A stretch of DNA of 64,000 nucleotides, taken from positions 19,686-83,685 of the IMG/VR virus record IMGVR_UViG_3300049172_000088; one strand, 5' to 3'. Within the stretch, counting starts at the first letter, position 1; every line of letters begins with the position of its first letter. This document shows positions 19,261-19,473 of this stretch, one piece after another. Below the pieces are notes generated by a model. The model did no database searches. It worked only from the letters and a program-made list of their open reading frames with translations, and had not been told where the DNA came from. The position numbers and the translations under genes were made by a program. This DNA is from a virus. Lineage: Duplodnaviria; Caudoviricetes.

Positions 19261-19473
19261 TCAGGCGGCCTGTTGAGCGGGGCGGATGTACGGGGCGAGG
19301 AGCGCGGCCAGGCGAGTGCACTGCTCCTCGGTGAGGGGCGGATCGTGCTCGCCGTCGCGCCAGCCGGCCTCGAAGGCTTGCTGCGGCGTGGTGCAGATCT
19401 CCTGCCTGCCACGCCCCGCCGCACCGAGACGCGCCTTGCCGTACCGCGCCGGGCCTGGGTCGTTAGTGGTCAC
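19261..19473 (-). CDS. Small hypothetical protein carrying an in-frame GGY-NN unit in its 5' part
   Basis: Coupled GTG start; TPQQAFEAGW..EHDPPLT. Confidence 0.55.
   Translation of the reverse strand: MTTNDPGPARYGKARLGAAGRGRQEICTTPQQAFEAGWRDGEHDPPLTEEQCTRLAALLAPYIRPAQQAA
19404..19457 (-). ncRNA. Solo GGY-NN guide-like unit A
   Basis: Nine 5-nt-phased GGC/GGT/GTC triplets ending in GGCAGGC; 54 nt, the modal array unit length. Confidence 0.7.

What the first reader, a model, noticed from the sequence alone, without database searches (positions are those of the whole stretch)
19261..19473. Second orphan guide inserted in frame into the gene it nearly targets
Seen: a 54-nt unit (18 codons, frame-preserving) occupies the 5' part of the small ORF. 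It decodes to T-P-A-(D/E)-A-(F/L)-V-A-G-W, while the codons 15 nt downstream encode TPQQAFEAGW. Guide and near-target lie in inverted orientation on the same transcript, just after the RAMP-like gene and its partner. Inference: units can be captured or copied next to their target locus, which hints at how new guides arise. It could also form an intramolecular gapped duplex.
Basis: partly seen in the sequence, partly recalled or inferred. Interest (0 to 1): 0.8.

Follow-up and report, generated by a model that had tools for sequence, protein, structure and literature searches.

The report
Phage VIPR guide inside a gene
The 54-base stretch is a real guide RNA unit of a phage VIPR system (an RNA-guided gene silencer first published in 2026). 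It sits in the leader of a small early gene and is best read as aimed at rival phages' versions of that gene, while the phage's own copy next door falls below the targeting threshold.

Summary
At 19455-19402 (- strand) there are ten consecutive G[GT][CT]NN pentamers. In the 64-kb window such runs occur only here, in the 1-kb array at 20600-21638, and at 33644-33708.

The system is a known kind: VIPR (bioRxiv 10.64898/2026.04.26.720920, .720927 and 2026.10.15.759431). This scan has already noted VIPR-like loci on other DNA (43 notes, at least 40 genomes).
- Gene 19889-20521 is a Vipr protein. Its family profile matches the solved SUSP1 Vipr at E = 5.8e-14, and the residues aligned to the GGY contacts are kept.
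- Gene 19470-19892 is the conserved accessory partner (vap).
- The GGCA-punctuated array fits the published "staggered" architecture.

Read by the published 1-nt-skip rule, the unit spells L-T-P-A-(D/E)-A-(F/L)-V-A-G.
- The phage's own gene, 12 nt downstream, matches 6/10 dinucleotides (0.70 of bases). This is below the published 80% threshold.
- Homologous genes in two VIPR-less temperate elements match 8/10 (0.85 and 0.90).

None of the 32 retrieved homologues has the segment, and homology on both sides places the unit in frame inside the gene's variable leader.

The "guide capture" idea is unsupported. In relatives, guides also sit next to their own sub-threshold allele of a gene they hit in rivals. 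This is a new member of a known kind, with an unusual in-ORF guide.

The parts
19402..19455 (-). vrRNA unit after vap ("solo A"). It has nine GGY-NN pentamers plus GGCA/GGCAG, and the guide dinucleotides are CC GC AC AA GC TC GC GG GT AG. It also forms codons 7-24 of the small ORF.
   Evidence: composition
19360..19392 (-). The phage's own allele of the guide's target motif (T-TPQQAFEAGW, codons 28-38). It matches 6/10 dinucleotides (0.70 of bases), is wobble-aligned, and is below the published 80% threshold.
   Evidence: threshold from 10.64898/2026.04.26.720920
19261..19473 (-). Small early-operon ORF (70 aa) of the CRTPxEAFxAGWxDGxxDPPLT family. Its GTG start overlaps the vap stop (GTGA). 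The conserved domain begins at residue 25.
19470..19892 (-). vap-like accessory gene (140 aa, phrog_15946). It is found beside vipr in all 20 related loci. The fold is not assigned.
19889..20521 (-). vipr gene (210 aa, phrog_4652), encoding the RAMP-type protein that binds the GGY triplets.
20600..21638 (-). Staggered vrRNA array: 18 units of 9-14 GGY-NN pentamers, each set off by a 4-nt GGCA/GTCA phase shift.
21640..21760 (-). RanBP2-type zinc-finger ORF head. Its frame runs on, stop-free, through the whole array into vipr. Its codons at 21709-21669 are the best own-genome match (8/14) of the first array unit.
21757..22029 (-). cro-like HTH gene heading the operon. Its codons at 21930-21899 match the first vrRNA of the Nonomuraea prophage (L005) at 9/11 dinucleotides.
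22036..22065 (-). Promoter-like site upstream of the cro-like gene. It is a consensus match only.
33644..33712 (+). Second solo vrRNA unit ("solo B"): 13 pentamers plus GGCA, intergenic, followed by a hairpin. Its best own-genome match (8/13, in frame) is the adjacent amidase gene at 33525-33488.

Best explanation
The stretch is a vrRNA (guide RNA) unit of this phage's VIPR system.

Published mechanism:
- Vipr protomers bind one GGY triplet each along the RNA and present the NN dinucleotides.
- The dinucleotides pair with double-stranded DNA while skipping every third base, usually the codon wobble base.
- The resulting filament/R-loop blocks transcription.

What is shown here:
- The unit lies 15 nt after the vap stop, on the operon strand.
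- It sits inside the variable N-terminal leader of the next gene, and the ORF reads through it in frame.
- Its decoded target is the conserved TPxEAFxAGW motif of that small early-gene family.

What is inferred:
- The unit is aimed at rival temperate actinophages' alleles, which sit just downstream of cro in their early operon. A roadblock there would silence the rival's early genes.
- The phage's own adjacent allele is spared because it mismatches 4 of 10 dinucleotides. One mismatch is Q at a position that is D/E in 31 of 33 family representatives.
- The guide may be kept next to the immune allele by linkage. A recombinant that took the guide without that allele would target itself.
For: - Unit anatomy and uniqueness.
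- Vipr identity: PDB 36pp_D (SUSP1 Vipr) at E = 6.7e-5 with the single sequence and E = 5.8e-14 over the full length with the family profile. H35, R146 and E185-W186-R187 align with the GGY-contact residues H17, R138 and D177-W178-R179 (residues from 10.64898/2026.04.26.720927).
- A partner-gene homologue (tblastn) is in all 20 related loci.
- The code and the 80% criterion come from 10.64898/2026.04.26.720920.
- Rival alleles: L021 2986-3014 matches 8/10 dinucleotides (17/20 bases; 9/10 in the register that includes W). L022 2060-2088 matches 8/10 (18/20). The next best match in those loci is 5/10.
- The own allele matches 6/10 (14/20). At the protein level, 2 of 33 family representatives fit 8/9 core dinucleotides, 11 fit 7/9, and the own allele fits 6/9.
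- None of the 32 retrieved homologues has the segment, and leader homology brackets the insertion.
- The same arrangement is seen in relatives:
  - The L007 unit between vipr and vap hits L005 vipr at 9/11, against 5/11 for its own adjacent allele.
  - The L005 unit hits L011 vap at 9/11, against 6/11 for its own.
  - The L005 first unit hits this phage's cro-like gene at 9/11, against 6/11 for its own cro.
  - In total there were 4 such hits, against about 0.6 expected from permuted guides.
- No self-target reaches 80% in the phage's own genome.
Against: - No expression or processing data exist for this locus.
- The unit lacks a 5' GGCA delimiter and has no 3' hairpin, unlike solo B and the array end.
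- No perfect target was found. The valine (GT) position is seen in none of the 33 family representatives, and an exact 9-dinucleotide pattern has no hit in IMG/VR.
- The rival matches sit exactly at the published threshold (80% of dinucleotides), not above it. L021 and L022 were chosen from the family by protein-level fit.
- How many mismatches this actinophage clade tolerates is unknown, so "own allele spared" is an inference.
- Across 86 units in all loci, adjacency to a near-match is not generally enriched.
Confidence: 0.7

Rival explanations
1. The unit is a stranded remnant of an array that once lay after vap. It no longer works as a guide and is simply read through as the tolerated leader of the next gene.
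For: It has no 5' GGCA delimiter and no 3' hairpin or tail. It lies in an ORF. No perfect natural target was found. Relatives carry larger arrays at this position.
Against: All ten pentamers are canonical, compared with 87% in the array. The decoded guide still fits a conserved motif of a real gene family at 8/10 dinucleotides in two rival elements, which a decaying sequence would not be expected to keep.
Confidence: 0.15
2. Guides are made in place by copying or capturing the neighbouring gene sequence into GGY-NN form, so the adjacency records how new guides are born.
For: Three exposed units of this phage have their best or near-best own-genome match right beside them, all in frame: solo B (p = 0.001), the first array unit (p = 0.001) and solo A (p = 0.027).
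Against: No known or plausible enzyme in the locus could turn codons into pentamers. The guide fits foreign alleles better than the adjacent one. Across 86 units, adjacency is not generally enriched. Linkage of a guide to its immune allele explains the same pattern without any new chemistry.
Confidence: 0.1
3. The unit regulates its own downstream gene in cis: a partial (0.70) match gives weak self-repression or an RNA-level gapped duplex.
For: The guide and its near-target are 12 nt apart on one transcript. The cryo-EM paper reports complexes assembled with ssRNA targets.
Against: The match is below the published 80% threshold, at which no self-targets were found in published surveys. The naked RNA folds no better than shuffled sequence (z = +1.08).
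Confidence: 0.04
4. The resemblance is chance: a G-rich coding stretch in a 70% GC genome.
For: The single-base period-5 Fourier power at this site (2.07) is only on a par with six other places in the window.
Against: Ten consecutive GGY-NN pentamers occur nowhere else outside the VIPR elements. The segment is absent from homologues. Translated arrays of other loci (L012, L013) align to it.
Confidence: 0.01

Closest known systems
VIPR systems with staggered vrRNA arrays (10.64898/2026.04.26.720920, Fig. S18 legend)
   Same: Vipr RAMP protein plus one accessory gene. GGY/NN pentamer guides of 9-16 repeats. Units abut with a 1-nt overlap, seen here as the 4-nt GGCA step. The target rule skips one base, the wobble. 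The system is phage-borne.
   Different: Here one unit lies inside an ORF, in frame. The upstream array is itself stop-free in the frame of the preceding gene. The VIPR type (I-VII) could not be assigned because the supplementary tables are not held.
Type II VIPR of Escherichia phage SUSP1 and the Pseudomonas fulva prophage
   Same: Homologous Vipr (profile E = 5.8e-14 to PDB 36pp), with the residues aligned to the GGY contacts kept. vrRNAs lie both upstream and downstream of vipr-vap. Targets are rival mobile elements, including other VIPR loci and lysis-lysogeny regulators.
   Different: SUSP1 vrRNAs are separate ~100-nt RNAs, each ending in a conserved pseudoknot tail. The units here have no tail. 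The host is a high-GC actinobacterium.
Solo / orphan vrRNAs of SUSP1-family phages and F5 satellites (10.64898/2026.10.15.759431)
   Same: These are vrRNAs standing apart from the main array. Their self-match scores are lower than their matches to rivals, which avoids autoimmunity. Targets are wobble-aligned in conserved coding motifs.
   Different: Those solos lie in non-coding DNA, often in phages that have lost vipr-vap. This unit is 15 nt from vap in a vipr-positive phage and is embedded in the homologue of its own target gene.
Free-standing homing endonucleases of T-even phages (intronless homing). This comparison rests on my own knowledge and was not tested.
   Same: A weapon gene sits beside the phage's own resistant allele of the neighbouring gene that it attacks in rivals, so weapon and immunity are inherited together.
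   Different: VIPR silences transcription rather than cutting DNA, at least in the types studied. No gene-conversion drive is shown or implied here.
Class 1 CRISPR Cas7 backbone with crRNA
   Same: A RAMP protein polymerises on a guide RNA and periodically flips bases out.
   Different: The period is 5 nt with only 2 pairing bases, against 6 nt with 5 pairing bases. There is no repeat-spacer array. PADLOC gave no significant Cas hit for the five proteins scanned.

Membership tests
VIPR | Vipr protein: a minimal RAMP homologue | tested here: met
   The single sequence hits PDB 36pp_D "SUSP1 Vipr protein" at E = 6.7e-5. A 14-sequence family profile hits it over residues 4-189 of 202 at E = 5.8e-14.
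VIPR | Residues that hold the GGY triplet (SUSP1 H17, R138, D177, W178, R179; 10.64898/2026.04.26.720927) | tested here: met
   The aligned positions are H35, R146, E185, W186 and R187. D to E is a conservative change. R146 is invariant, and H35, E185 and W186 are at least 90% conserved, in alignment A2.
VIPR | vrRNA made of 9-16 tandem GGY/NN pentamers | tested here: met
   The array has 18 units of 9-14 pentamers. 167 of 193 triplets are GGC, GTC or GGT. The finding's unit has 10 of 10 canonical pentamers.
VIPR | One accessory (vap) gene beside vipr | tested here: met
   The 140-aa partner overlaps the vipr stop, and a homologue is found by tblastn in all 20 related loci. Its fold and vap class were not resolved.
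VIPR | Targets obey the 1-nt skip rule, are wobble-aligned, and match at least 80% of NN in other mobile elements | tested here: met
   Solo A matches L021 and L022 at 8/10 dinucleotides, in frame. Relatives' units match at 9/11 on vipr, vap and cro of other phages. For this phage's 18 array units, no target was found in the roughly 350 kb searched.
VIPR | No self-target at or above 80% NN | tested here: met
   The best own-genome matches of all 21 units are at or below 70%.
VIPR | vrRNA is expressed, processed and bound by Vipr, and silences transcription | not testable with these tools
   This needs small-RNA sequencing, pull-down and reporter assays. No listed public run holding this DNA is on record as RNA.
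VIPR staggered-array architecture | Adjacent vrRNAs overlap by 1 nt with no tail or linker between them | tested here: met
   All unit spacings are 5n+4, with GGCA or GTCA at each phase shift. The description is in the Fig. S18 legend. The figure itself was not seen.
CRISPR-Cas (class 1) | Repeat-spacer array and cas genes | tested here: not met
   Tandem-repeat and Rfam scans show no CRISPR repeats. PADLOC gives only a Cas5a hit at E = 0.043 on the partner gene.

The most novel reading that the evidence does not exclude
In this actinophage VIPR clade, guides are kept physically next to the phage's own sub-threshold ("immune") allele of the very gene they hit in rivals (cro, zinc finger, vipr, vap, the small early gene, the amidase). 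This would form linked weapon-plus-immunity cassettes that travel together through mosaic recombination. Such guides can even be embedded in frame in coding sequence. The stop-free frames across upstream arrays suggest that translation through vrRNA DNA is under selection. A stronger version is that guides are born from the neighbouring gene.
Probability: 0.3. Interest if true: 0.6.

Novelty: new member of a known kind. Interest (0 to 1): 0.4.

Why it matters
VIPR was described only in 2026, and mainly from enterobacterial and Pseudomonas phages. This locus shows the same code at work in a high-GC actinophage, with relatives among Nonomuraea and Thermoactinospora prophages and Gordonia and Mycobacterium phages.

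It gives a concrete, testable guide/target/immune-allele trio, and a guide that doubles as coding sequence. The three held VIPR texts describe vrRNAs only as intergenic.

The recurring arrangement of a guide beside the phage's own mismatched allele bears on how phages avoid self-silencing and on how guides spread. That remains a hypothesis.

There is also a practical point. Public phage annotations call these arrays as proteins, for example UmaThurman gp40 and the 5' part of Philus gp52.

Tried and rejected
- **Rfam:** a scan of 18000-23000 found no known RNA family.
- **Small ORF searches:** Pfam, PHROGs and PADLOC gave nothing usable. tblastn against GenBank phages and the word-indexed protein search found only the ORF itself. 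The exhaustive HMMER search was needed to find homologues. One of its hits, P0135, is an RCC1-repeat false positive.
- **Own-genome gapped matching:** all units together score no better than permuted guides (sum 122 against 119.9 +/- 2.3), and spacings of 2, 4 and 5 likewise. The array does not self-target.
- **IMG/VR pattern scans:**
  - The exact 9-dinucleotide pattern of solo A has 0 hits.
  - The 8-dinucleotide pattern has 27 hits, none in the small-gene family. The best (L033, 9/10, in a 240-aa protein with LTPAEAFDAGWDYPP) is within chance expectation.
  - A 9-dinucleotide core of solo B has 5 hits, none in an endolysin, and is consistent with chance.
- **Intramolecular duplex:** RNA folding of 19345-19475 gave -56.6 kcal/mol against a shuffle mean of -60.9 +/- 4.0 (z = +1.08). 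There is no support.
- **Expression:** no RNA holder is listed among public runs, and the only holder is probably the source metagenome.
- **vap fold:** the AlphaFold model is confident (pLDDT 90). Foldseek found no match at E <= 0.001, and the VIA-align rows only fit the long C-terminal helix. No fold was assigned.
- **VIPR type:** the supplementary tables of the VIPR paper are not held, so the type was not assigned.
- **Single-base period-5 Fourier power:** this proved a poor detector for the solo unit. The pentamer-run test replaced it.

Full report
**What is in the sequence**

The window is part of an 83,685-nt IMG/VR virus record of about 70% GC, estimated 93% complete. On the - strand an early operon runs in this order:
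- a promoter-like site (22065-22036);
- a cro-like HTH gene (21757-22029);
- a RanBP2-type zinc-finger ORF head (from 21760);
- a 1,040-nt stretch with strict 5-nt periodicity (20600-21638);
- a 210-aa gene (19889-20521, phrog_4652);
- a 140-aa gene whose start overlaps the previous stop (19470-19892, phrog_15946);
- the 70-aa ORF of the finding (19261-19473), whose GTG start overlaps the previous stop as GTGA.

The periodic stretch parses into 18 units. Each is a 4-nt GGCA or GTCA step followed by 9-14 pentamers of the form G[GT][CT]NN. The triplet is GGC, GTC or GGT in 167 of 193 pentamers, and the NN is free.

**Checking the observation**

Codons 7-24 of the small ORF (19455-19402) read as nine such pentamers plus GGCA/GGCAG. 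Runs of five or more consecutive G[GT][CT]NN pentamers occur in the 64 kb, on either strand, only at three places: the array, this site (a run of 10), and 33644-33708 (a run of 13, intergenic). A fourth site lies in the part of the record outside the window, at C1:11692-11758.

The segment lacks the codon-position GC signature that the rest of the ORF shows. Translated arrays of other loci align to it in tblastn. The 54-nt unit is therefore real and is array-type sequence, not an ordinary protein segment.

**What the system is**

Notes from earlier agents of this scan named a 2026 system called VIPR. I checked this myself.

The preprints describe the following (10.64898/2026.04.26.720920; 10.64898/2026.04.26.720927; 10.64898/2026.10.15.759431):
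- a phage-borne minimal RAMP protein, Vipr, with one accessory gene, vap;
- vrRNAs of 9-16 GGY/NN pentamers;
- a target rule in which the NN dinucleotides pair with DNA while every third base is skipped, usually the wobble base;
- transcriptional silencing of rival mobile elements;
- a working criterion of at least 80% NN match for natural targets, with no self-targets found above it;
- "staggered arrays" in which neighbouring vrRNAs overlap by 1 nt;
- solo vrRNAs whose self-match is lower than their match to rivals.

The locus meets these criteria:
- The 210-aa protein hits the solved SUSP1 Vipr (PDB 36pp_D) at E = 6.7e-5 on its own. A profile of 14 family members hits it at E = 5.8e-14 over nearly the full length.
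- The residues reported to hold G1, G2 and Y3 (H17, R138, D177-W178-R179) align with H35, R146 and E185-W186-R187.
- The 140-aa partner has a homologue, by tblastn, in all 20 related loci I collected. Its fold was not assigned.
- The 5n+4 spacing with GGCA is what a 1-nt overlap looks like.

This is therefore a VIPR locus of the staggered-array kind.

**The unit and the gene it sits in**

An exhaustive HMMER search found 32 true homologues of the small ORF (one further hit is an RCC1 false positive). They share the domain CRTPxEAFxAGWxDGxxDPPLT..L..LL.P. In this phage that domain begins at residue 25, immediately after the unit. The homologues' N-terminal leaders vary from 0 to about 50 residues, and none has the GPARYGKARLGAAGRGRQ segment.

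The six codons before the unit (MTTNDP) resemble the starts of homologues (MTTSSD in L022, MTRPDP in L021). No other canonical start codon exists in the frame. Homology therefore brackets the unit, which lies in frame inside the gene's variable leader.

Frame preservation is weak evidence by itself: the prior chance is one in three, and GGY-NN sequence rarely contains stops.

Units after vap are not peculiar to this phage:
- The Thermoactinospora rubra prophage (89% Vipr identity) has one to two units 17 nt after its vap stop, in an intergenic gap (L007 7143-7217).
- L009-L014 carry their whole arrays after vap.
- The Nonomuraea prophage has a small gene coupled directly to vap with no unit.

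**What the guide is aimed at**

Decoded by the skip rule, the unit reads CT AC CC GC GA GC TT GT GC GG, which spells L T P A D/E A F/L V A G. This is the family's conserved motif.

| Target | Dinucleotides matched | Bases matched |
|---|---|---|
| L021 (serine integrase, cI/cro, no vrRNA-like run) | 8/10 (9/10 in the W register) | 17/20 = 0.85 |
| L022 | 8/10 | 18/20 = 0.90 |

All matches are in frame. The next-best matches in L021 and L022 are 5/10.

At the protein level, 2 of 33 family representatives fit 8 of 9 core dinucleotides, 11 fit 7, and the own allele fits 6. The own allele carries Q at a position that is D or E in 31 of 33 representatives.

In L021 and L022 the target gene sits just downstream of cro in the early operon (directly after it in L022, one small gene later in L021). 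A Vipr roadblock there would plausibly silence the rival's early genes; this step is an inference.

Caveats:
- The rival matches sit at the published threshold, not above it.
- The guide's valine position is seen in none of the 33 family representatives.
- An exact 9-dinucleotide pattern has no hit in IMG/VR.
- A looser pattern gave only chance-level hits.

**Is the adjacency meaningful?**

On dinucleotide matching alone, the adjacency of this unit to its near-match is modest (p = 0.027). Across 86 units in all loci, local near-matches are not generally enriched.

Two other exposed units of this phage do have their single best own-genome match right beside them, in frame:
- solo B against the adjacent amidase gene (8/13, p = 0.001);
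- the first array unit against the zinc-finger codons just upstream (8/14, p = 0.001).

In relatives I could find both members of the pair:
- The L007 unit between vipr and vap matches the Nonomuraea prophage's vipr C-terminus at 9/11, and its own allele 50 nt away at 5/11.
- The L005 unit between vipr and vap matches L011's vap at 9/11, and its own vap at 6/11.
- The L005 first array unit matches this phage's cro-like gene (window 21899-21930) at 9/11, and its own cro at 6/11.

In total, four matches of at least 80% were found, where permuted guides gave about 0.6.

The simplest reading is that these guides attack rival alleles of the neighbouring genes, and that the home allele is mismatched. 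Keeping guide and immune allele adjacent would protect recombinants from self-silencing; this is an inference, by analogy with free-standing homing endonucleases. Nothing in the data requires that guides be copied from the neighbouring gene. The guide's better fit to foreign alleles argues against a simple local copy.

**Other ideas tested**

- The suggested intramolecular gapped duplex has no support from folding: z = +1.08 against shuffles.
- No listed public run holding this DNA is on record as RNA, so expression and processing remain untested.
- If the vrRNA is cut out of the operon transcript, the small ORF's start and leader would be severed from its conserved domain on that molecule. 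Guide maturation and translation of the 70-aa form would then be mutually exclusive. This is an inference and is untested.

**Verdict**

The "guide capture" inference is unsupported.

The system is VIPR, a kind published in 2026 and already noted by this scan on other DNA. I rate this a new member of a known kind.

Three details are not mentioned in the three VIPR texts held here:
- a vrRNA embedded in a reading frame;
- guides sitting beside their own sub-threshold alleles;
- stop-free frames through arrays that lie upstream of vipr.

Noticed in passing
33644-33712 (+): A second solo vrRNA unit: 13 pentamers plus GGCA, then a GC-rich hairpin. It lies in the gap between an amidase-type lysin gene (32833-33603, -) and a collagen-like gene (33730-34356, -), on the opposite strand to both. 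It decodes to L G V K I H Y T G A (S/R) V (D/E). The adjacent amidase codons RGCKIHYVGSRVD (33525-33488) are its single best own-genome match (8/13, in frame, local p = 0.001). No rival target was identified.
   Followed up: partly
20600-21760 (-); also L005 4596-5996, L007 5522-5923, L008 5380-5918: The arrays that lie upstream of vipr are free of stop codons in exactly one frame. In this phage that frame runs from the zinc-finger start through the array into vipr (623 codons), while the other two frames have 3-4 stops. Shuffling the NN gives an open frame in only 5% (this phage) and 2% (L005) of trials. All four upstream arrays are open, whereas several arrays downstream of vap (L009 second block, L010, L011 first block, L012, L020) have stops in all frames. 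This may mean selection for translation through the array.
   Followed up: partly
21899-21930 (-): The cro-like gene of this phage (codons GISRAYLAHVE) matches the first vrRNA of the Nonomuraea sp. prophage (L005 4746-4800) at 9/11 dinucleotides (20/22 bases). This phage is therefore a predicted target of a relative's VIPR.
   Followed up: yes
L001 2780-3103 (UmaThurman gene 40); L002 2993-3196 (5' part of Philus gene 52); L003 3197-3437: GenBank actinophage records annotate vrRNA arrays as hypothetical proteins (UmaThurman gp40, the N-terminal third of Philus gp52) or leave them as unexplained gaps (Ecliptus). In the two Gordonia phages the array lies between vipr and vap. In the cluster F1-type mycobacteriophage it lies upstream of vipr.
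   Followed up: partly
G000:C1:11692-11758 (-), in the 19.7 kb of the record before the window: A third solo vrRNA unit: 11 pentamers ending in GGCAG, just upstream of a ribosome-binding site and an ATG. Its best own-genome match is 7/11, about 6 kb away, so there is no adjacent near-target.
   Followed up: no
19466-19484 (-) compared with L022 1989-2007: The junction before the small gene is nearly identical in the two elements (GAGGACGCGGC[G/A]TGACCAC), although the upstream gene is vap here and cro in L022. Both upstream proteins end in EDAA. This could be a recombination joint or a coincidence in GC-rich DNA.
   Followed up: no
21565-21634 (-) compared with 21669-21709 (-): The first array unit decodes to S T (K/N) (D/E) P (D/E) R T S (C/W) R (K/N) (C/W) (I/M). 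It matches the phage's own zinc-finger codons SSNESWRGRCRNCN at 8/14. By protein-level reading only, it fits the zinc fingers of L005 and of protein P0125 at about 9/14. It probably targets rival alleles of that finger, but none reaching 80% was found.
   Followed up: partly
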